From a virus: a DNA stretch of 21,138 nucleotides. The position numbers and the translations under genes are program-made. Every line of letters starts with the position of its first letter. Within the stretch, counting starts at the first letter, position 1. The notes under the pieces are model-generated. The model made no database searches and was not told the origin of the DNA. It saw nothing but the letters and a program-made list of their open reading frames with translations. Below, one piece after another: positions 4,832-16,965 of this stretch. The DNA is taken from the UHGV virus genome UHGV-0785298; one strand, written 5' to 3'.

Positions 4832-6397
4832 TTACTTGTACAGGCCTGTCACGTCAATGGACTTGTGCTGGCGGTTGTACTCGGCGGTGTAATCATCCAA
4901 CACCAAGTATTCACAGCAGCGGATTTTGCTTGAACCAAAATCATCGGTGACCGACACGATGTCACGCGGGTTCAGCTTACAGCGAACGACGCGCTGGCCA
5001 ACAGAACCGAAACACTCCTTCAGATAGGCCAGGGAGCAAACGTGCAAACCGTATGAACACAGTTCAGAGTTGTTGTCGTTCACGAATGAGCGAGCCATCC
5101 GCACGATAGTGCCTGGGGCGTTGCTGATCGTGTTGCTGTGCTTGTCCATGTAGTTACCGCGCACCGATTTGTAGAGGATGATGTCACCATCTTCGTCAAT
5201 TTCGATGTCAGAGTACGCCATGAACTCATAGATGCGCCCAGACTGAACCAGAGAAGCTGACGGGTTCTGGAACATTTTGTCCATAAACTTCGCCATGCGG
5301 TCCAGGTTGTGGAAGTCACCCTTCAGCATCAGCGCCAGTACACGCTTGGCGATGGATGTGCCTGTGATGTCATGACCGGACCAGCGGACACGGTTGTCAG
5401 ACACGTCTACCAGACCAGCAGCGTACTTCGCGATGGCTTCACGAGGTCGCATCAGCGAGTAGGCCAGCTTCACGTCTTTGTCTTTGATCGCCTGTACGAT
5501 GCGGTCGTAGGCCGGGTGTGAAGTGGTGATCGTTTCCGGCTTACCGTCAATCGCGATAACAACGCTGTCAGGCAGAATCAGGATCTGGTGTTCGTTCAGG
5601 AACACGTCCAGGTCTTTCGCACCGAAGTCCTGCTTGGTCTTCTTGTCATCAGCCACTTCTTCAACGTCTTTGACAGCGACGGTGAATTCTACAGAAGACA
5701 GAGCCAAGCGCAGGGTGCGACCGAGGATGCCATCAAAGTAACCAACACGGCGACGGGCATCCAAGGATCCACGGATAGGATAGGTTTCCCCGTCAACCAC
5801 AACGCTGATTTCAACGTTGCTCGGAACTTTGTCCGCACCTTCTGACAGCGCCACAGAAATTTCTGCCATCTTGCCGATATCTTCAACATCGAAATCGCGA
5901 CTATCGCCTTCCACAGGAGTCAATTCAGACTTTTCAAAGAAAGCCCCTTTGAAATTGCCGTCGTTAATGAGACACAGATACTTGTTGTGGTTCGGCAGAT
6001 ATGCCCCAACATACCATTCTGTGTCATCTTTGTCTTTGGCCGTGCCGCCCGGTTGGACCTCGAATACTTCCTGCTCTTCCGGCTTGATAGGAGAGATCAC
6101 AGTTACCTTGTTTTTCTCCTCGGTAATCCGGACCAACAGAGCGCGAGCAATGGTCTTGGCGGACACACCGTACACCTTGGCCAAGAATGCATTGCTGACA
6201 TTACCTGCCGCCGAATCCCTTTGGATATTGGCGATCTGATCTGTTGTCAGGGATTTCAGCGAAGTAGGGTCAACACCGAGTTCCGTGTCTGCAACACGTT
6301 GTACAGTCGAGCGGGGTATGCCCAACAGAGTAGCAATTGCGCTCTGGCTTTTGCCTTCCTTCAAATGCTTCAGGATCTTTTCTTCAATCTTGTTCAT
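4832..6397 (-). CDS. rIIB: rIIB protein
   Basis: The ORF track extends to a TTG at 6484, which would overlap rIIA; the first ATG is at 6397 (MNKIEEKILKH...), giving 521 aa. The C-terminal half matches T4 rIIB as recalled: DGDIILYKSVRGNYMDKHSNTISNAPGTIVRMARSFVNDNNSELCSYGLHVCSLAYL...RVVRCKLNPRDIVSVTDDF...YLVLDDY. N-terminal HTH-like segments (SQSAIATLLGIPRSTVQRVA). Sits directly downstream of rIIA. Confidence 0.85.
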   Translation of the reverse strand: MNKIEEKILKHLKEGKSQSAIATLLGIPRSTVQRVADTELGVDPTSLKSLTTDQIANIQRDSAAGNVSNAFLAKVYGVSAKTIARALLVRITEEKNKVTVISPIKPEEQEVFEVQPGGTAKDKDDTEWYVGAYLPNHNKYLCLINDGNFKGAFFEKSELTPVEGDSRDFDVEDIGKMAEISVALSEGADKVPSNVEISVVVDGETYPIRGSLDARRRVGYFDGILGRTLRLALSSVEFTVAVKDVEEVADDKKTKQDFGAKDLDVFLNEHQILILPDSVVIAIDGKPETITTSHPAYDRIVQAIKDKDVKLAYSLMRPREAIAKYAAGLVDVSDNRVRWSGHDITGTSIAKRVLALMLKGDFHNLDRMAKFMDKMFQNPSASLVQSGRIYEFMAYSDIEIDEDGDIILYKSVRGNYMDKHSNTISNAPGTIVRMARSFVNDNNSELCSYGLHVCSLAYLKECFGSVGQRVVRCKLNPRDIVSVTDDFGSSKIRCCEYLVLDDYTAEYNRQHKSIDVTGLYK

Positions 6398-10544: not shown

Positions 10545-10958
10545 TTAGACTTCAGATTCTACTTTCCCGCCTCGTAGATCCCGAACTGGTTTACCGTCCG
10601 GTGTCATCACATAAATGGTGTTGATTGTCTCAAACCAAGACAGCTGGTCAACACCCTCGGTGTATGGAGTCACCGGAACAGAAGTCTTGACCTCTTTGCC
10701 TTTCGTGTTCGGATGTTCAACCACATCCAAGAACGCACATTTCCCGCTCGGAAGGATCACACCATCAGTAAACAGCACGATCTTCTTGCGAGGGTTGCTG
10801 GCCTCACCCAGGCACACCACCAGATGATGGATCATCTCGGGGCGGTCAATCAACAAGTCGTCTTTGATAATCCCTTGCTTGATAGCAGAGATCACTACTT
10901 CATCCAACAGAGCCTGCTGTTGTTCCAGTGTCAGGGATTCAGTGAGTTTCACGCTCAT
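10545..10958 (-). CDS. hypothetical protein
   Basis: First ATG at 10958 (MSVKLTESL...), 4 nt after the LemA stop; 137 aa. The ORF-track start at 11027 would overlap LemA. Confidence 0.5.
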   Translation of the reverse strand: MSVKLTESLTLEQQQALLDEVVISAIKQGIIKDDLLIDRPEMIHHLVVCLGEASNPRKKIVLFTDGVILPSGKCAFLDVVEHPNTKGKEVKTSVPVTPYTEGVDQLSWFETINTIYVMTPDGKPVRDLRGGKVESEV

Positions 10959-10962
10959 GACA

Positions 10963-11532
10963 TCAGCCTTTGAAGTTAATCGGTTTCTGAATACCAGCGT
11001 CGAACGCGGCCTGGGTACGGGTATCACTCACCACCTGACAGGTCTTGTCAAGGTCGATACGCGGGTAGCCGAACATGCCAGCAATCAACGAACCAGGGAA
11101 CTGAGCCAGCTTGGTTTCGTATATTGTGCAGATATCCAGCTTCTTGGTCTGGCTGATGCGGAATTCATCACGCCCAGAACTGATCACCACCTGGATCTCT
11201 TTGTACAGGCTGGAATCGAACTGAATATTCTGCTCCTGGATCCACTGCATGACGGCCTTGGAACCATCAGCGCCATAACGCCCTTCGAACGTGCCTTTGA
11301 TCACTTCCTTCAGGCCGTCTTTATACATGTCAGGAATCTGCGCCGTCTCTTGAACTTTGAGCGTGTAGTTGCTCAGGTAGTTCTCGGAGTCTTTGTTGAA
11401 CTTCTTGACCTGCTGCTCAGTGCGGTTGAAGTCGTTGAAGTAGCTGATGACTGTACCGATGCCGAGAATCACTACACCCAGCAAAGCCAAACCAATTATC
11501 CAACCTGTTGCAATACCCTTAGATTGAGACAT
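10963..11532 (-). CDS. LemA-family membrane protein
   Basis: 189 aa with an N-terminal TM helix (WIIGLALLGVVILGIGTVI) and a C-terminal RDEFRISQ...IYETKLAQFPGSLIAGMFGY that matches the LemA signature (RxDYN...YNTAIxxFPxNxVAGMFGF). Strong Shine-Dalgarno AAGAGGAAG upstream. Confidence 0.65.
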   Translation of the reverse strand: MSQSKGIATGWIIGLALLGVVILGIGTVISYFNDFNRTEQQVKKFNKDSENYLSNYTLKVQETAQIPDMYKDGLKEVIKGTFEGRYGADGSKAVMQWIQEQNIQFDSSLYKEIQVVISSGRDEFRISQTKKLDICTIYETKLAQFPGSLIAGMFGYPRIDLDKTCQVVSDTRTQAAFDAGIQKPINFKG

Positions 11533-11550
11533 TCTTACTTCCTCTTTTGA

Positions 11551-12666
11551 TTAAAAATTAAACGGATAACGACGACGGCCACCATTGTACTCCATTCGCT
11601 GTAATATGAAAATTGCGGTGAACGGTAGACAGCCCAGTAGAACAACAATCACAACTTCCCAGGTCTTGAGTTCCCGCCACTTCAGGTACTCCATTTCCTT
11701 CATCTCAACGCGGTTGTAGCCTTTGGTGATGTTAGCGACAACATCAGCCATGACACCGACACCCATGTCGTGGCCTGTGAGAGCCATGCCATTGCGAGAA
11801 TGGAGTTCACGGTTATGCATACCATCAGCGAACGAAGTGCTCTTGCCCCAGTTGATCTTCAGGTCTTTGTTGATGTCGGTCACGACGATAACGTCGTTCT
11901 TTTTACCACCATCCCAAGCATAGACCAAGCCCTGGAAGTATTCAACTGGCTGACCGGAAGTCACAACCCAGACGATGTTCACCTGCTTGGCTGCGCCCAG
12001 CTTCTTCAGGACATCGTTCAGATAGTCGTTCCAGTATGTGGTCGGTAACGCCAGACCAGACACATTCAGTACACGAGTGACGCGATAGTAGTCATAGACC
12101 TCAGGGTACTTGGGAATCTTGTCTTTGAAGCGCTCAGCAAACTGCTGGTCCGAGCGAGAGAACAAAGAGTCCTTGTTACCCAGCACATAGTTCATGTAGG
12201 AATGCTCACGAGCTGCGGGTTCGCCGATCTGAACCTGCGCCCAGCGCGGGGGCTGACCAAGACCGCGACGATCAATGCGGTCAATCGTCAGATTACCGAC
12301 AGTCGTCAACACATCCCAGTCCACGTCATATGAATGCTCATAACATGTACTGCAATGGCGAGTGCGGGTACAGGACTTGCTGCTGCCGGAGCCGGAGCAT
12401 GATGTGGTGTAGTAGCAGTTGCATTCATATGAATGCTCACAGCTCACCTTATTCCGCTCCTTTGCAGTGACGTACCCGTTCAGGATCTCAACATCCCCTG
12501 AACTGCCAAGGGAGAACGCAGCATAAGTCCCCGCCTGAATCAGACAGGATAGCACCACTACAATCGCGGTCGCTATCAGAGTCTCTTTCGGCTCATGGGT
12601 CTTGCGGTGGTAGGCCACAAACAAAATAGCCAGTACCAATGGCACACCAAACAGGAGGTAGATCAT
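11551..12666 (-). CDS. membrane protein with Cys/His-rich segment and TPM-like domain (putative LemA partner)
   Basis: 371 aa: N-terminal TM helices, a Cys-rich block (CEHSYECNCYYTTSCSGSGSSKSCTRTRHCSTCYEHSY), then IVWVVTSGQPVEYFQGLVYAWDGGKKNDVIVVTDINKDLKINWG resembling the TPM-domain core (VVVT...W.IG.KGKDNGVLLLV...RKVRIEVGYG), and a C-terminal TM helix. The ATG overlaps the upstream stop (ATGA). Confidence 0.45.
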   Translation of the reverse strand: MIYLLFGVPLVLAILFVAYHRKTHEPKETLIATAIVVVLSCLIQAGTYAAFSLGSSGDVEILNGYVTAKERNKVSCEHSYECNCYYTTSCSGSGSSKSCTRTRHCSTCYEHSYDVDWDVLTTVGNLTIDRIDRRGLGQPPRWAQVQIGEPAAREHSYMNYVLGNKDSLFSRSDQQFAERFKDKIPKYPEVYDYYRVTRVLNVSGLALPTTYWNDYLNDVLKKLGAAKQVNIVWVVTSGQPVEYFQGLVYAWDGGKKNDVIVVTDINKDLKINWGKSTSFADGMHNRELHSRNGMALTGHDMGVGVMADVVANITKGYNRVEMKEMEYLKWRELKTWEVVIVVLLGCLPFTAIFILQRMEYNGGRRRYPFNF

Positions 12667-13114: not shown

Positions 13115-13312
13115 TTAATAGAGTTTGGTGTATGTTTGTTTGACACACATAAAAGTGCTCATATATCTTTGTGATTCCACCAAATGAGCAAACGCCTTTT
13201 CTGCCGAACTCTTGTCCTTGAACTCCAGAACGGAAGTGTCTACTGCAATAGATTGATTCTTCCCGTCGAAGCCAACGGTTGTCACTAAGATCTTATAATC
13301 TTGGGTTTCCAT
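13115..13312 (-). CDS. hypothetical small protein
   Basis: 65-aa ORF, ATG at 13312 with AAGGA upstream. Confidence 0.5.
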   Translation of the reverse strand: METQDYKILVTTVGFDGKNQSIAVDTSVLEFKDKSSAEKAFAHLVESQRYMSTFMCVKQTYTKLY

Positions 13313-13325
13313 GATGTATATCCTT

Positions 13326-13368
13326 GCAAAAGAAAGGGGAACGGGCTAATAATAACCCATTCCCCTTT
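13326..13368 (-). terminator. intrinsic-terminator-like hairpin (family A)
   Basis: 9-bp stem AAAGGGGAA / TTCCCCTTT enclosing loop CGGGCTAATAATAACCCA; on the minus strand it is followed by TTTCTTTTG, then an AAGGA Shine-Dalgarno and the ATG at 13312. Confidence 0.55.
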
Positions 13369-13393
13369 ATTGAAGGAAGCAACCCCAGTCAGA

Positions 13394-13561
13394 TTACTTT
13401 TTCTTCAGCTCGTCCAGTTTGGCTTCGATCTGGTCCAGAATCTCTTTGCCTTTCTGAACAATCACTTCACCATCTTGCGCGTGTTTACGGAAGACCAGAG
13501 CACCAGCGATGAAGCCGACAACCGCGCCAGGAAGCGCATAAACCAGCAGATCTTGTAACAT
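13394..13561 (-). CDS. small single-pass membrane protein (not in the ORF track)
   Basis: Hand translation from ATG 13561..13559 to TAA at 13396..13394: MLQDLLVYALPGAVVGFIAGALVFRKHAQDGEVIVQKGKEILDQIEAKLDELKKK (55 aa), one TM helix and a charged helical tail. A GAGGA Shine-Dalgarno lies 9 nt upstream, inside a hairpin arm. Confidence 0.5.
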   Translation of the reverse strand: MLQDLLVYALPGAVVGFIAGALVFRKHAQDGEVIVQKGKEILDQIEAKLDELKKK

Positions 13562-13597
13562 GATAATATCCTCGCTTTATAGGCGAGGATATTTATA
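13562..13597 (-). promoter_or_regulatory. TATAAATA (T4 late-promoter-like octamer) followed by an 8-bp hairpin that contains the downstream gene's Shine-Dalgarno
   Basis: The minus strand reads TATAAATA at 13597..13590, immediately followed by stem ATCCTCGC / GCGAGGAT (13567..13589) whose 3' arm contains the GAGGA used by the small ORF starting at 13561. This is the only TATAAATA in the window. Confidence 0.3.
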
Positions 13598-14833
13598 TCA
13601 GCGTTTCAAGAGTGCCATGAGGTTGACGCTGCTGGACTTCGACTTGTCCTCAACCTTGCGCACAGGCATCTTCAGGTTCGTACATACCTCGGATGGTTCC
13701 CAGCGCGTACCCTTTTGCAGGTGCCAGATATGCAGAGGAACACCAGTCTCAAAGAACACAGGCATCTTCCACTTCTGGACGCCTGGAACGTGCCCTGCAG
13801 GAGCCTTTTCGCACAACAGGGTATCTGGTAGCCAGAGCGAACGGGCTTCCCAGAGCGCTGCGCAGGAGTATTCAGGCCAGACGCGTTCCATGTAGTCTAT
13901 CTCATCCCAGGTACGCTCTGCGTCCCACCCGATGTAACGGGTATTCTTCAGTCGGAAGAATTTCTTCAGCCAACAAGCACCGGAGGTTTCAAAGTTCAGG
14001 CGGTTGATGAACGTCAGGTGCCCGAACTCAGCCACACAATCTTGGAACGCCTGCTCAAGGTCGGCCTCAAGGATGTCACACTCTTCATCCGTGATAGGAC
14101 AACCGTTGATCTTTTTCTTCCCGTGTTTAGTCACCCAATCGTCACGGTTGGACAAGAACGCCGCTCCATTACGGTTGGACTCGCTTCCATCACGATCACG
14201 CAACATGAAGCCAGGGACGTCAATGGTGTATTCGTTCCCGAAGACCATGTTCAGGGCTTCCAGGAAGTTCCAGGCGCTCAGGCGACCGAAGTATTTCCAG
14301 GACATCGCCGTGTCCCACAGCTGGGTGAATTGTTCTGTCTTATCGATACACACCAACATCCCACGGAAAGCGTCATATTGAGTACGGCCAGCCAGCCAGT
14401 CAATATAGGACTGAACACACGGAATCATCTTGGACTTGCGGTAGCGACAGTCGGTATCGAATCGCATGCGATCAAAGTTCAGATTATACCAATCAGAGAA
14501 GCGCTGCATCTCTTCCTTAGACTGAGGCGGCACAGGGAACTCACTGTAGATAGTCCACGGCCCGACAGCGTTATAGCAACAACCCCACAGGAATGCCATC
14601 CAGATCTTGCGCTCGACTTTCTGTTCGAGGCTGATACCTTCAGTGACTTCAATCGCATAGTCCATCAGACGCATCTGCTGGTTGTGCTCTTCTGTGTAGG
14701 ACAGCGCCTCCACCCAAGCCTTGAGCAAGTACATGCGATTCTCAGGCTTGCGATAATCAACAGCCAGGTCAATCGGGTACTTCCATTCAGTCGGAGGCGT
14801 ATAGCCCGTCGGCATTTTAGATAGATGCGTCAT
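13598..14833 (-). CDS. hypothetical protein, Trp/Cys-rich, enzyme-like
   Basis: 411-aa ORF, ATG at 14833 with GAGGAAG upstream; it overlaps the end of the upstream gene by 17 nt. No motif recognised by eye. Confidence 0.6.
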   Translation of the reverse strand: MTHLSKMPTGYTPPTEWKYPIDLAVDYRKPENRMYLLKAWVEALSYTEEHNQQMRLMDYAIEVTEGISLEQKVERKIWMAFLWGCCYNAVGPWTIYSEFPVPPQSKEEMQRFSDWYNLNFDRMRFDTDCRYRKSKMIPCVQSYIDWLAGRTQYDAFRGMLVCIDKTEQFTQLWDTAMSWKYFGRLSAWNFLEALNMVFGNEYTIDVPGFMLRDRDGSESNRNGAAFLSNRDDWVTKHGKKKINGCPITDEECDILEADLEQAFQDCVAEFGHLTFINRLNFETSGACWLKKFFRLKNTRYIGWDAERTWDEIDYMERVWPEYSCAALWEARSLWLPDTLLCEKAPAGHVPGVQKWKMPVFFETGVPLHIWHLQKGTRWEPSEVCTNLKMPVRKVEDKSKSSSVNLMALLKR

Positions 14834-15369: not shown

Positions 15370-16965
15370 TCACCCCTTCTTCATCAGGTCAAGGAGAGAG
15401 CGCGACGCTGCCTTCGTTGCTTCTGGCTGGGCGCTCGCCTTGGTTTTAGTTTTGGATGCCTTCTGTGGCTTCTCAGGGACTCTGTGTGCCAAAGGGTTGC
15501 TACCTCTTATCTTGCGCAGCATGGGATACTGCTCGCAATATTTATGGAATTCATCTTTTGAAAGATTAAGCCCAACAAAGTCAATAACAAAGTCACCGAT
15601 AACCGCCAACGGGGCGTCAAAATATTTCAGGATGTTCCAGCCGACGGCCTTCACACCGTTTCCATTAGCAGCCTTGGCAATGAAGAGTTCATGATTGGAA
15701 TCCGGTTCCAGCTCATACCCAATAGCAGAATATTCGCCCATGATCTTGACATGATCCTTGGTGTATTGATCGTTTCGTCCCCAGCCAGTGTCCTTCGCCG
15801 CCTTACCAGAACGACCGATGATACGCTTGTCGTAATCTTCCCGTGCCTGATAGATGAATGAGATGAATGCCATGTTGTTGAACCCCAAGTCCTGGTGTAC
15901 GAACTTAGGACGCCACCGATGGCTCTGCATCATAGGTTCCCCTTCCAATATGATGGTAGAATCCTTGTATTTCCCTTTGATGTATTTCACCAATGAATTG
16001 GCCATCTCAGAAGTCTTGAGAGTGGAGTGGATGAAGTCCATGGAAGTCCAAGAAGCCAGATCTGATTTGTTGGACACTGTATACTTGCCGATGAACACCA
16101 GATTGATTTCCTTGAACCAAAACCCAACCTGGATCATCTTCTTGTCGAATTCGTATTCTATGAGTTCTGGCTCATATTTGGTTCTCAACCACTCAAGGAA
16201 TTGAACGACACGAGTCCCCTTTCCCGTTCCACTTGTCCCGCGAATAACGACAATACCCGGCGTCACGCTAGAATTTATCATAGTCATAAAACGTTTGTCC
16301 TCTTTGGGAATCCAACCATCTTTAAACATGGCGATCATATTACGAAAGACGCTCTCATCGCCCTTTAGATTACGATACTCTGTGTCCAGTAGTTTAGAAT
16401 ACCACAATCCGATAGATTTGTAACCACATCCTCGTTTTGGCATACAGGTAGGATTCACAGTACCGCCGTTGTTCACCCATCTATCATAGATCCTACGGGC
16501 GTCCTTCCAAACCCACCAATAACCATTTGAAACCATGAATGGGTAGGGAGAATTACCCCTGTTCTCCTTTATTGATTTTATTACACGTTCCCGGTATTCT
16601 GGATCATCCCAAGGATTTATACCAGATTTGTATTTCTTGCCAGTCCTAGCCAACGCCGCCTTAAATTGGTTTGGTATGATAGAATTGTCTCCTCCCAATT
16701 TCAGGTTCAGGCATAATGGGTCCAACAGTAACTCTTCCGTAACAATAATAGACTCCAGGTCGGATGCCTCCAACCTGGTTTCAAACTTTTCTATTATCGT
16801 CTTTAAGAATTCAGAAGCGGGGTGAGATTCCAACAACCTTTTGATGATAACACCAGAACCCATATAGGGGTCTTGTTCGGGGGTGCATGAACAAGACCGA
16901 ATCCCGACGTAGAATCTCCCAGTTGGGACATGAGTTATCCTATATGTGTAATGGTAGCGAGCCAT
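15370..16965 (-). CDS. GIY-YIG nuclease domain fused to a P-loop NTPase/kinase-like domain
   Basis: 531 aa. N-terminus YHYTYRITHVPTGRFYVGIRS...DPYMGSG fits the GIY-(10-11 aa)-YIG spacing and the 'YMGSG' signature of Seg-like phage GIY-YIG nucleases. Mid-protein Walker A IVVIRGTSGTGKGTRVV and a Walker-B-like DSTIILEGEP. Lys-rich C-terminal tail. The ATG overlaps the upstream stop (TAATG). Confidence 0.55.
   Translation of the reverse strand: MARYHYTYRITHVPTGRFYVGIRSCSCTPEQDPYMGSGVIIKRLLESHPASEFLKTIIEKFETRLEASDLESIIVTEELLLDPLCLNLKLGGDNSIIPNQFKAALARTGKKYKSGINPWDDPEYRERVIKSIKENRGNSPYPFMVSNGYWWVWKDARRIYDRWVNNGGTVNPTCMPKRGCGYKSIGLWYSKLLDTEYRNLKGDESVFRNMIAMFKDGWIPKEDKRFMTMINSSVTPGIVVIRGTSGTGKGTRVVQFLEWLRTKYEPELIEYEFDKKMIQVGFWFKEINLVFIGKYTVSNKSDLASWTSMDFIHSTLKTSEMANSLVKYIKGKYKDSTIILEGEPMMQSHRWRPKFVHQDLGFNNMAFISFIYQAREDYDKRIIGRSGKAAKDTGWGRNDQYTKDHVKIMGEYSAIGYELEPDSNHELFIAKAANGNGVKAVGWNILKYFDAPLAVIGDFVIDFVGLNLSKDEFHKYCEQYPMLRKIRGSNPLAHRVPEKPQKASKTKTKASAQPEATKAASRSLLDLMKKG

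What the first reader, a model, noticed from the sequence alone, without database searches (positions are those of the whole stretch)
13394..13597. Unannotated 55-aa membrane protein gene preceded by TATAAATA and a hairpin that contains its Shine-Dalgarno
The 285-nt gap between the 411-aa gene and the next listed ORF is not empty. It holds a 55-codon ORF (single TM helix plus charged helix) below the ORF-track size cut-off. Immediately upstream are the only T4 late-promoter-like TATAAATA in the window and an 8-bp stem (ATCCTCGC/GCGAGGAT) whose 3' arm contains the GAGGA Shine-Dalgarno. This suggests a late-expressed small membrane protein (holin, antiholin or spanin-like, or an exclusion protein) under structure-dependent translational control.
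Basis: partly seen in the sequence, partly recalled or inferred. Interest (0 to 1): 0.45.

Follow-up and report, generated by a model that had tools for sequence, protein, structure and literature searches.

The report
Late-only small phage membrane protein gene
A real, conserved 55-codon phage gene for a one-helix membrane protein sits behind a T4-style late promoter built into a hairpin that hides its ribosome-binding site, so it is probably translated only late in infection; the switch is a known kind, and the protein's function is still unknown.

Summary
The window is an Ackermannviridae (ViI-like) phage, 98% identical here to Escherichia phage AV101. The minus-strand ORF 13394-13561 is a genuine gene. 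Its variation across relatives is almost all synonymous, it matches PHROG 3879 at E 6e-32, and it is over 90% conserved in about 220 phage genomes. It is not new to the databases: relatives list it as a hypothetical or membrane protein, and the LIMEstone1 record already marks a putative late promoter and a terminator at this locus.

What I add is the probable mechanism. TATAAATA and the next bases form the 5' arm of the hairpin. By the T4 rule (motif at -13 to -6), late transcripts start near 13584, inside that arm, and leave the Shine-Dalgarno free. Read-through RNA from the upstream DNA-modification gene folds into an extended stem of about 90 nt (-46 kcal/mol) that buries the Shine-Dalgarno, the AUG and the first codons. 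T4 lysozyme gene e has the same layout, and so do homologues in phiMAM1 and Erwinia phage FBB1, each with a different stem sequence.

The protein's function is unknown. In three enterobacterial prophages its homologues lie directly after the lysis cassette, which hints at a lysis accessory role. Nothing here has been tested experimentally.

The parts
13394..13561 (-). 55-aa ORF (stop codon included): a small bitopic membrane protein, PHROG 3879
   Evidence: E 6e-32, full length; 227 phage records; codon-position pattern 5/3/36. predicts a single helix over residues 2-54.
13569..13573 (-). Shine-Dalgarno GAGGA, 7 nt upstream of the ATG (13561-13559), inside the 3' arm of the hairpin
   Evidence: Mansal annotates an RBS at the same place.
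13565..13593 (-). Core hairpin H1. The 5' arm AAUAUCCUCGC is 13593-13583, the loop is CUAUAAA, and the 3' arm GCGAGGAUAUU is 13575-13565.
   Evidence: -16.8 to -18.6 kcal/mol, z -4.3 to -5.4. It is conserved in 20 loci with only G-C to G-U changes.
13590..13597 (-). TATAAATA, a T4-type (gp55) late-promoter motif. Its last four bases belong to the 5' arm of H1.
   Evidence: and (unchanged in all aligned relatives). LIMEstone1 annotates a 'putative late promoter' here. The family motif CTAAATA is 78% gene-proximal, against 16% for permuted controls.
13584..13584 (-). Predicted late transcription start (+1). It is the 6th base after the motif and lies inside the 5' arm of H1.
   Evidence: Inferred from the T4 rule that the motif occupies -13 to -6 (PMC1524935). 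RNA starting here has no significant structure and a free Shine-Dalgarno (z +0.9).
13543..13635 (-). Extended stem of the read-through RNA. H2 is UGAUA 13600-13596 with UAUCA 13565-13561. H3 is AACG 13605-13602 with UGUU 13560-13557. H4 is UCUUG 13611-13607 with CAAGA 13555-13551. H5 is CCAGCAG 13635-13629 with CUGCUGG 13549-13543. Together they bury the Shine-Dalgarno, the AUG and about the first 6 codons.
   Evidence: -46.3 kcal/mol, z -4.6, 0 of 200 shuffles. The same fold appears in CBA120, LIMEstone1 and Ag3. The consensus fold keeps H1-H4.
13598..14833 (-). Upstream co-directional 411-aa gene, an amino acid:DNA transferase involved in thymidine hypermodification. It is the source of read-through transcripts, and its last four codons plus stop codon form the 5' strands of H2-H4.
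   Evidence: PF18724, E 7e-60; phrog_3271. No terminator-like site lies between it and the small ORF.
13327..13368 (-). Intrinsic-terminator-like hairpin after the small ORF: AAAGGGGAAUGGG..CCCGUUCCCCUUU followed by CUUUUG
   Evidence: 16-pair stem in the fold. It is conserved in all close relatives and annotated as a factor-independent terminator in LIMEstone1.

Best explanation
This is a genuine, conserved Ackermannviridae gene for a 55-residue inner-membrane protein. It has one N-terminal transmembrane helix. The charged C-terminal helix is probably cytoplasmic, judged by the positive-inside rule.

The gene lies at the 3' end of a long co-directional early/middle operon that includes DNA polymerase and the thymidine-modification genes. 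Transcripts that read through from the 411-aa gene carry an extended stem that buries the Shine-Dalgarno, the AUG and the first codons, so they are translated poorly.

After replication begins, the phage's gp55-type late sigma factor recognises TATAAATA, which itself forms part of the 5' arm. Transcription then starts about 6 nt downstream, near 13584, inside that arm. The late mRNA therefore lacks the inhibitory strand and has a free 23-nt leader. It is translated and ends at the terminator 13368-13327. T4 uses the same device for lysozyme gene e and I-TevI.

- **Shown here:** the gene is real and conserved, the motif, stem and terminator are present and conserved, and the layout matches T4 gene e.
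- **Inferred:** the start site, the late timing and the translational block.

The protein's role is unknown. My best guess is an accessory or regulatory component of lysis at the inner membrane, at roughly 35%.
For: **Gene.** The coding signature is clear. The protein matches PHROG 3879 over its full length. It is found in 227 phage records, 218 of them at 90% identity or more.

**Promoter.**
- AV101, which is 98% identical in this region, encodes gp55, gp33 and the sliding clamp.
- (C)TAAATA lies 20-45 nt upstream of gp18, gp22, gp14, gp6, gp5, gp48, gp4, gp2, gp54, VriC and the tailspike genes.
- 14 of 18 CTAAATA copies in AV101 lie just upstream of a Shine-Dalgarno, start codon and ORF. For the 104 permutations of the same letters the mean is 2.6 of 16.5.
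- All 4 exact TATAAATA copies in AV101 are also gene-proximal.
- Aeromonas phage Aeh1 uses CTAAATA, and the T4 motif occupies -13 to -6 (PMC1524935).
- LIMEstone1 annotates this site as a late promoter.

**Switch.**
- Read-through RNA folds to -46.3 kcal/mol (z -4.6), whereas RNA starting at the predicted +1 folds to -12.1 (z +0.9) with the Shine-Dalgarno unpaired.
- CBA120, LIMEstone1 and Ag3 give the same fold.
- Three lineages rebuild the same layout with different stem sequences. The window has TATAAATA|UCCUCGC..GCGAGGA. phiMAM1 has CCTAAATA-AU-AACUCACUAGCAAUAGGAGUU. Erwinia phage FBB1, a T4-like Straboviridae member, has TATAAATA-CUCUUGUU-AAUU-AACAGGAG (-13.1 kcal/mol, z -4.1).
- T4 gene e, read directly, has the same geometry: TATAAATACCUUCU...AGGAGGUAUUAUG, -14.9 kcal/mol. 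Its mechanism is documented in PMC3014915.
- In AV101 the endolysin gene and the tailspike genes carry the same layout.

**Function hint.** Homologues directly follow the holin-endolysin-spanin cassette in Providencia, Morganella and one other prophage. In environmental phages they sit between the tail-fibre genes and an XhlA-like protein.
Against: - I found no transcript 5' ends, RNA-seq, ribosome profiling or proteomics for this gene in any Ackermannviridae phage. The start site is extrapolated from T4.
- Within the close relatives the stem is nearly invariant. There are no double-sided compensatory changes and the shuffles are uninformative, so support for the structure rests on between-lineage comparison and on energies.
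- The phiMAM1 hairpin is weak (-8.1 kcal/mol, z -1.4). A second Miltonvirus has TAAGTA in place of TAAATA.
- The 5' strands of H2-H4 lie in the last codons of the upstream ORF. Terminating ribosomes could open the outer stem and allow some coupled early translation.
- The protein matches no family of known function.
- In its own genome the gene is not near the endolysin or spanin genes. Other family members lie in capsid or tail modules.
Confidence: 0.6

Rival explanations
1. Translational coupling rather than a late-only gate. The stem is opened by ribosomes finishing the upstream 411-aa ORF. The small protein would then be made from the early/middle polycistronic mRNA in step with that gene, and the TATAAATA would be secondary or inactive.
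For: The 5' strands of H2-H4 are the last four codons and the stop codon of the upstream gene, and H1 starts only 4 nt after the stop. No terminator separates the two genes.
Against: - The G+C-rich core of H1 (UCCUCGC/GCGAGGA) begins 8 nt beyond the stop codon, so it should survive a terminating ribosome.
- In FBB1 the homologue follows a tRNA cluster, with no upstream ORF to couple to, yet it has the same promoter-plus-hairpin layout.
- The motif is unchanged in all 20 aligned relatives.
- The same layout precedes the endolysin and tailspike genes in AV101 and T4 gene e.
Confidence: 0.15
2. The hairpin is an RNA-end element of the upstream operon, such as a terminator, a 3' stabiliser or an RNase III-type processing site. 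On this view its overlap with the Shine-Dalgarno is incidental.
For: A stable stem immediately follows a stop codon, and Ackermannviridae genomes carry many intergenic hairpins. Thirty-one terminators are predicted in LIMEstone1 (PMC3296691).
Against: - No U-tract follows the stem (AUAUUAUCAUG), and the terminator scan did not call it.
- A strong terminator with a U-tract lies after the small ORF instead.
- The stem extends into the coding region of the small gene and pairs with its AUG. A terminator has no need for that.
Confidence: 0.07
3. Coincidence: a chance TATAAATA and a chance stem in front of a small gene that is expressed constitutively from the operon.
For: One TATAAATA in 21 kb is not significant by count. 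Fifteen of 100 shuffles have at least one.
Against: - The position and sequence are unchanged across genera.
- The layout is rebuilt independently in phiMAM1 and FBB1.
- Hairpin z-scores are -4 to -6.
- 10 of 30 TAAATA sites in AV101 carry such hairpins (free energy -16 kcal/mol or lower), against 5% of random genome segments.
Confidence: 0.05

Closest known systems
T4 gene e (lysozyme) late-promoter/hairpin translational switch (McPheeters et al. 1986, cited from memory; reviewed in Uzan & Miller 2010, PMC3014915)
   Same: A TATAAATA late promoter forms the 5' strand of a stem whose 3' strand is the Shine-Dalgarno and AUG region. Upstream-initiated transcripts contain the stem, and late transcripts start inside it. 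The T4 sequence read here (TATAAATACCUUCU...AGGAGGUAUUAUG, -14.9 kcal/mol) is nearly superimposable on the window's (TATAAATAUCCUCGC...GCGAGGAUAUUAUCAUG, -16.8 kcal/mol or lower).
   Different: - The phage family differs (Ackermannviridae, not Straboviridae).
- The regulated gene is a 55-aa membrane protein, not a lysozyme.
- There is one promoter rather than two in tandem.
- The stem extends about 40 nt into the preceding ORF and into the first codons.
- There is no experimental mapping here.
T4 I-TevI (td intron ORF) and Aeh1 mobE hairpins that sequester the ribosome-binding site
   Same: Early and middle read-through transcripts are not translated because the ribosome-binding site is sequestered, and a late promoter next to the 5' strand relieves the block (PMC3014915).
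   Different: Those genes encode homing endonucleases embedded in other genes or introns. Here the gene is a free-standing small ORF with its own terminator.
Dickeya phage LIMEstone1 ORF191 (YP_007237513), CBA120 orf249 and Ag3 orf00248, all in PHROG 3879
   Same: These are direct orthologues, at least 91% identical. LIMEstone1 already annotates the transmembrane domain, the coiled coil, the putative late promoter and the terminator.
   Different: None of the records or papers I read mention the promoter-embedded hairpin or assign a function.
Small holins with one transmembrane domain and a charged C-terminus (for example T7 gp17.5, cited from memory)
   Same: The size, the single transmembrane helix, the charged C-terminal tail and the strictly late expression logic are all similar. 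No holin has yet been identified in ViI-like phages (PMC3184105 and PMC3121705).
   Different: There is no sequence match to any holin family. In the prophages that carry a homologue, canonical holins are already present next to it. The gene is far from the endolysin in its own genome.
YhcB/ZapG (DUF1043) membrane-anchored coiled-coil proteins
   Same: Both have an N-terminal glycine-rich transmembrane helix followed by a charged helix. JGI labels several family members this way.
   Different: The matches are far below threshold: E 0.03-0.06 and about 14 bits, against cut-offs of 33-150 bits. The protein is less than half the length. This is a resemblance only.

Membership tests
T4 gene e-type late-promoter/hairpin translational switch | A gp55-type late promoter motif lies immediately upstream of the regulated gene, in a phage that encodes gp55, gp33 and gp45 | tested here: met
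   TATAAATA is at 13597-13590. AV101 encodes gp55, gp33 and the sliding clamp. The family motif (C)TAAATA is gene-proximal in 14 of 18 copies, against a mean of 2.6 of 16.5 for permuted controls.
T4 gene e-type late-promoter/hairpin translational switch | The promoter and the bases just after it form the 5' strand of the stem, so the late start site falls inside the stem | tested here: met
   The 5' arm is 13593-13583, and the predicted +1 is 13584 by the -13 to -6 rule. The start site itself is inferred, not mapped.
T4 gene e-type late-promoter/hairpin translational switch | The 3' strand of the stem contains the Shine-Dalgarno and/or the start codon | tested here: met
   GAGGA (13573-13569) lies in H1. 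The AUG and codons 2-6 lie in H2-H5.
T4 gene e-type late-promoter/hairpin translational switch | Co-directional upstream transcription reads into the gene with no terminator in between | tested here: met
   The upstream genes are on the same strand, with a 36-nt gap and no terminator-like site. AV101 genes from 6092 to 22743 all lie on one strand. This is based on sequence only.
T4 gene e-type late-promoter/hairpin translational switch | Mapped late 5' ends inside the stem, and a measured translational block on the long transcripts | not testable with these tools
   I found no transcript or translation data for any Ackermannviridae phage.
PHROG 3879 / Ackermannviridae ORF191-like small membrane protein | A full-length profile match and conserved synteny | tested here: met
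   E 6e-32, residues 2-55 against profile positions 1-54 of 54. The neighbouring genes are the same in AV101, CBA120, Ag3 and LIMEstone1.
Holin | Sequence membership of a described holin family | tested here: not met
   There is no holin hit in PHROGs, Pfam or NCBIfam, even at permissive E-values.
Holin | A small protein with at least one transmembrane domain and a charged C-terminus, encoded next to the endolysin | tested here: inconclusive
   The architecture fits. However, the AV101 endolysin orthologue (71196-71990) is about 58 kb away. Prophage homologues sit in lysis cassettes that already contain holins.
Holin | Forms lethal membrane lesions that release endolysin | not testable with these tools
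   This needs expression and lysis assays.
Spanin (o-spanin or i-spanin) | For an o-spanin, a lipoprotein signal with a lipobox cysteine. For an i-spanin, an N-terminal transmembrane domain plus a long periplasmic coiled-coil domain. | tested here: not met
   The protein has no cysteine. Only about 30 residues lie beyond the transmembrane helix, and the RKH flank predicts a cytoplasmic C-terminus. In locus L015 a true embedded o-spanin (lipobox LLVGC) lies just upstream of the homologue.
YhcB/ZapG (DUF1043) | A profile match above the curated threshold | tested here: not met
   PF06295 gives E 0.054 and 14 bits against a cut-off of 33.5. NF008672 gives E 0.04 and 13.8 bits against a cut-off of 150.
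Intrinsic terminator (for hairpin H1) | A G+C-rich stem followed directly by a U-tract | tested here: not met
   The stem is followed by AUAUUAUCAUG, and the terminator scan does not call it.

The most novel reading that the evidence does not exclude
The 55-aa protein belongs to a large, undescribed family of 40-60-residue phage membrane proteins with the motif VGF[IV]AGALV[FY]R[KN][HN]. More than 1000 clusters match. On the most novel reading that my evidence does not exclude, this family is a new component of phage lysis, acting as a holin or a lysis-timing regulator. In Ackermannviridae it would be the holin that has not been identified since 2010-2011. It would be kept silent until late infection by a promoter-embedded anti-Shine-Dalgarno hairpin, a device this phage family also uses on its endolysin and tailspike genes.
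Probability: 0.15. Interest if true: 0.6.

Novelty: new member of a known kind. Interest (0 to 1): 0.35.

Why it matters
If the mechanism holds, the classic T4 gene e trick extends to a second phage family. The trick is a late promoter placed inside the hairpin that blocks translation of read-through transcripts. It would then be a reusable design rule: in AV101, about a third of the candidate late promoters carry such a hairpin, including those of the endolysin and tailspike genes. This helps annotate promoters and expression timing in ViI-like phages, which are widely used for biocontrol and diagnostics, and it matters when engineering them (for example, when inserting reporter genes behind late promoters). 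It also marks a very widespread small membrane protein family with no assigned function as a testable candidate for the still missing lysis-control genes of these phages.

Tried and rejected
- **Covariation within close relatives.** The alignment of 20 loci has 7 distinct rows and shows only G-C to G-U changes, no double-sided changes, and uninformative shuffles. It therefore gives no statistical support. I relied on the independently rebuilt hairpins in phiMAM1 and FBB1 instead.\n- **Known RNA families.** Rfam gives only sub-threshold matches, on the terminator hairpin. The window has no tRNA genes.\n- **Protein family libraries.** Pfam, NCBIfam and PADLOC return nothing significant.\n- **tblastn with the FBB1 homologue.** It found only FBB1 itself.\n- **IMG/VR relatives.** Most of the 80 loci are G+C-rich environmental phages with no TAAATA motif and no hairpin, so they do not bear on the switch. 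Two TAAATA hits there (L051, L085) are simply the loop of a terminator.\n- **Promoter-to-start-region pair count.** My count of base pairs between the promoter side and the translation start region did not discriminate from random segments, so I dropped it. Only the free energies and z-scores are used.\n- **Literature.** A search for CTAAATA returned mostly irrelevant primer sequences. I found no Ackermannviridae transcriptome.\n- **Readings rejected.** These are the terminator reading of H1 (no U-tract), the o-spanin and i-spanin readings (no cysteine, too short), and a disruptin-like cationic peptide (8 K/R against 8 D/E, net charge about 0; this comparison is from memory).
Full report
**What the window is.** The region 13250-13750 is 98% identical to Escherichia phage AV101 (Ackermannviridae, Aglimvirinae). 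It is 80-97% identical to 210 other ViI-like phages of Salmonella, Escherichia, Dickeya, Shigella and Enterobacter. AV101 encodes T4-type late-transcription proteins: gp55, gp33 and the sliding clamp. The gene upstream of the finding (13598-14833, minus strand, 411 aa) is an amino acid:DNA transferase (PF18724, E 7e-60). It belongs to the thymidine-hypermodification pathway of these phages.

| Element | Coordinates or value |
|---|---|
| ORF | 13394..13561, 55 aa |
| TGA stop of the 411-aa gene | 13600-13598 |
| TATAAATA | 13597-13590 |
| Stem | ATCCTCGC/GCGAGGAT |
| GAGGA Shine-Dalgarno | 13573-13569, 7 nt before the ATG |
| Gap to the next ORF of at least 60 aa | 285 nt |

- The stem is longer than described. 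It has 10-11 bp and a free energy of -16.8 to -18.6 kcal/mol, and 0 of 200 shuffles fold as well.
- TATAAATA is the only copy in the window. That alone is not significant: 0.16 copies are expected, and 15% of shuffles have at least one.
- A strong hairpin followed by CUUUUG lies downstream of the ORF, at 13368-13327.

**The ORF is a real gene, and it is already annotated elsewhere.** Among 12 distinct orthologous sequences, variable sites fall 5/3/36 by codon position. Twenty-nine codons vary only synonymously and 7 change the residue. The other two frames give 2/35 and 1/37. The protein matches PHROG 3879 (function unknown) over its full length at E 6e-32. tblastn finds it in 227 phage records, 218 of them at 90% identity or more. 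It is 63% identical in Serratia phage phiMAM1 and 44% identical in Erwinia phage FBB1, which is a T4-like Straboviridae member.

AV101, Mansal, CBA120 (orf249), Ag3 (orf00248, 'hypothetical membrane protein') and LIMEstone1 (ORF191) all annotate it. The LIMEstone1 record also marks a 'putative late promoter' just upstream and a 'factor-independent terminator' just downstream. These are among the 33 late promoters and 31 terminators predicted in PMC3296691. 'Unannotated' therefore applies only to the first stage's ORF track.

**Is TATAAATA a plausible late promoter in this family?** In 2011 the late promoter of ViI-like phages was described as not yet identified (PMC3184105). I joined the whole AV101 genome and read the regions upstream of structural genes. 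A motif (A)CTAAATA(C/T)C recurs 20-45 nt before the ATG of gp18, gp22, gp14, gp6, gp5, gp48, gp4, gp2, gp54, VriC and the tailspike genes.

- Of 18 CTAAATA copies, 14 lie just upstream of a Shine-Dalgarno, start codon and ORF.
- The 104 permutations of the same letters average 2.6 of 16.5. The only ones that reach comparable counts are shifted versions of the motif (TAAATAC, ACTAAAT) and one abundant permutation, TCAATAA (14 of 60 copies).
- All four exact TATAAATA copies in AV101 are also gene-proximal.
- CTAAATA is the late-promoter variant described for Aeromonas phage Aeh1, and the T4 motif occupies -13 to -6 relative to the start site (PMC1524935).

The motif in the window (ATAAATATCC) fits this family consensus. 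It is unchanged in all 20 close relatives that I aligned.

**Mechanism.** With the motif at -13 to -6, the late start falls at about 13584. That is inside the 5' arm of the hairpin, which spans 13593-13583.

- RNA beginning there (GCCUAUAAAGCGAGGAUAUUAUCAUG...) has no significant structure (z +0.9), and the centroid fold leaves the Shine-Dalgarno unpaired.
- RNA that reads through from the upstream gene folds into a much larger structure, at -46.3 kcal/mol and z -4.6, with 0 of 200 shuffles as stable.

| Helix | 5' strand | 3' strand |
|---|---|---|
| H1 | 13592-13583 | 13575-13566 |
| H2 | UGAUA 13600-13596 | UAUCA 13565-13561 |
| H3 | AACG 13605-13602 | UGUU 13560-13557 |
| H4 | UCUUG 13611-13607 | CAAGA 13555-13551 |
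| H5 | CCAGCAG 13635-13629 | CUGCUGG 13549-13543 |

The Shine-Dalgarno, the AUG and about six codons are buried in this structure. CBA120, LIMEstone1 and Ag3 fold the same way, with z from -3.1 to -5.6. The consensus fold keeps H1-H4.

This is the arrangement documented for T4 lysozyme gene e. There, long early transcripts form an inhibitory structure and are translated about 100-fold less, while late promoters lie in the DNA that encodes the 5' strand (PMC3014915). I-TevI and mobE work the same way. I read T4 gene e directly, and its layout is nearly superimposable: TATAAATACCUUCU...AGGAGGUAUUAUG, -14.9 kcal/mol, z -3.4 to -4.3.

**Evidence that the structure is selected.** Within the close relatives the stem barely varies. 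There are only two G-C to G-U changes and no double-sided changes, and the shuffle control is uninformative. That alignment gives no covariation statistic. One possible compensatory event occurs in H5 (G-C in the window, AV101 and L025; A-U in Ag3, L021 and L031), but it is a single event.

The stronger argument comes from comparing lineages. The homologous gene carries the same layout built from different sequences.

- phiMAM1 has CCTAAATA-AU-AACUC-A-CUA-GCAA-UAG-GAGUU. It is weak, at -8.1 kcal/mol and z -1.4.
- FBB1 has TATAAATA-CUCUUGUU-AAUU-AACAGGAG, with an outer CUAUAA/UUAUGG helix that pairs the promoter with the AUG. It folds at -13.1 kcal/mol, z -4.1.
- In FBB1 the gene follows a tRNA cluster, so no upstream ORF is available for translational coupling.

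**Rival explanations.**

- **Translational coupling.** The 5' strands of H2-H4 are the last codons of the upstream gene, so terminating ribosomes may open the outer stem and make the block leaky. The G+C-rich core of H1 starts 8 nt beyond the stop codon, however. FBB1 and the other genes with this layout argue for a late gate rather than coupling.
- **Terminator or processing hairpin.** This is unlikely. No U-tract follows H1, the real terminator lies after the ORF, and the stem reaches into the coding sequence.
- **Pure coincidence.** This is unlikely, given the conservation and the independent rebuilding of the layout.

**The protein.** AlphaFold predicts one continuous helix over residues 2-54, with mean pLDDT 88. 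Hydropathy peaks over residues 4-22. The RKH flank predicts an N-out, C-in orientation; that is my inference from the positive-inside rule. No library gives a significant match. The weak YhcB/ZapG, glycine-zipper and DUF948 hits are resemblances only.

An exhaustive profile search found 28 representatives. A broader profile found 1038 clusters of 40-60-residue proteins that share the motif VGF[IV]AGALV[FY]R[KN][HN]. Their genomic contexts are informative.

- In a Providencia prophage, a Morganella prophage and a third prophage in a 5-Mb genome, the gene comes directly after the holin, endolysin and spanin genes. In the third case its start overlaps the end of the embedded o-spanin.
- In many environmental phages it lies between the tail fibre and chaperone genes and a 252-aa protein with a sub-threshold XhlA match.
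- Other members follow the capsid genes.

All of these are late modules. The repeated position at the end of a lysis cassette suggests an accessory lysis role. It is not a spanin, because it has no cysteine and is too short. In those prophages it is not the only holin either. In ViI-like phages no holin has been identified, so a holin or lysis-timing role remains possible but is untested.

**Seen in passing.** The promoter-in-hairpin layout is not special to this gene. Of 30 TAAATA sites upstream of ORFs in AV101, 10 have hairpins with z of -4.3 or below and a free energy of -16 to -27 kcal/mol. For nine of the ten the energy falls to between -1 and -6 kcal/mol if the RNA starts 6 nt after the motif; the tenth, at 61080, keeps -11.7. 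Only 5% of random genome segments reach -16 kcal/mol. The ten include the endolysin orthologue (TTTAAATACCUCUGC...GUGGAGGUAUUU-CUU-AUG), three tail-fibre or tailspike genes, and gp6. I found no description of this in the papers I read.

**Verdict.** This is a new example, in Ackermannviridae, of the T4 gene e-type late-translation gate. It controls an already annotated small membrane protein of unknown function. Everything beyond sequence anatomy and conservation is inference, and the decisive experiments are 5'-end mapping and leader-reporter fusions.

Noticed in passing
AV101 genome (L008-L011, record coordinates): 3501(+), 149905(-), 146319(-), 143836(-), 72025(-), 115289(-), 153791(-), 132187(-): The layout of a late promoter inside a hairpin that pairs with the Shine-Dalgarno and AUG recurs across the genome. 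Ten of 30 TAAATA sites upstream of ORFs have hairpins of -16 kcal/mol or lower (z -4.3 or below), against 5% of random segments. They include the endolysin orthologue, three tail-fibre or tailspike genes, and gp6. The pattern is cTAAATAcCCC..loop..GGGgTATTTa followed by 0-8 nt and then ATG. I did not find it described in the papers I read.
   Followed up: partly
L012 6001-6159, L013 6001-6156, L015 6001-6141 (prophages in Providencia, Morganella and a 5-Mb genome): Homologues of the 55-aa protein (46-52 aa) lie directly after the holin-endolysin-spanin cassette, before the terminase genes. In L015 the start of the homologue overlaps the end of the embedded o-spanin (5709-6029, lipobox LLVGC).
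   Followed up: partly
window 13576-13582 (-), the loop of the hairpin: The loop and the base after it read CUAUAAAG, which contains TATAAA. In T4 gene e a second complete TATAAATA lies in the loop of the equivalent hairpin (L100 380-387). The window's copy lacks the TAAATA core, so it is probably not a second promoter.
   Followed up: no
window 15370-16965 (-): This is a single 531-aa ORF with a GIY-YIG homing-endonuclease-like N-terminal part (phrog_314) and a P-loop kinase-like C-terminal part (phrog_4409, 'guanylate kinase'). AV101 annotates the same region as two overlapping genes, a SegD-like protein (10586-11272) and a hypothetical protein (11265-12182). The two genomes therefore differ by a fusion or a frameshift.
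   Followed up: no
window 13629-13635 and 13543-13549 (-); alignment A5 columns 10 and 98: There is a possible compensatory change in the outermost helix H5. The window, AV101 and L025 have CCAGCAG/CUGCUGG. Ag3, L021 and L031 have an A and a U at the corresponding positions (G-C to A-U). On the 3' side this is a synonymous Leu codon change. It is a single event, so it is only suggestive.
   Followed up: partly
protein P0012: One database representative reads MMLEDVVVYGVGGGVVGLMGGGVVLGKEGEDGEVIVEKGKEIVEEMEGKVEEVKKK. It looks like the same protein with essentially every C in the DNA read as G (L to V, A to G, P to G, R to G, H to E, Q to E). This is probably a sequencing or assembly artefact in a public run.
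   Followed up: no
window 13313-13326 (-): Only about 14 nt separate the terminator's U-tract from the ATG of the next gene (65 aa, 13115-13312), which leaves no room for a promoter. That gene must therefore depend on read-through of the terminator.
   Followed up: no
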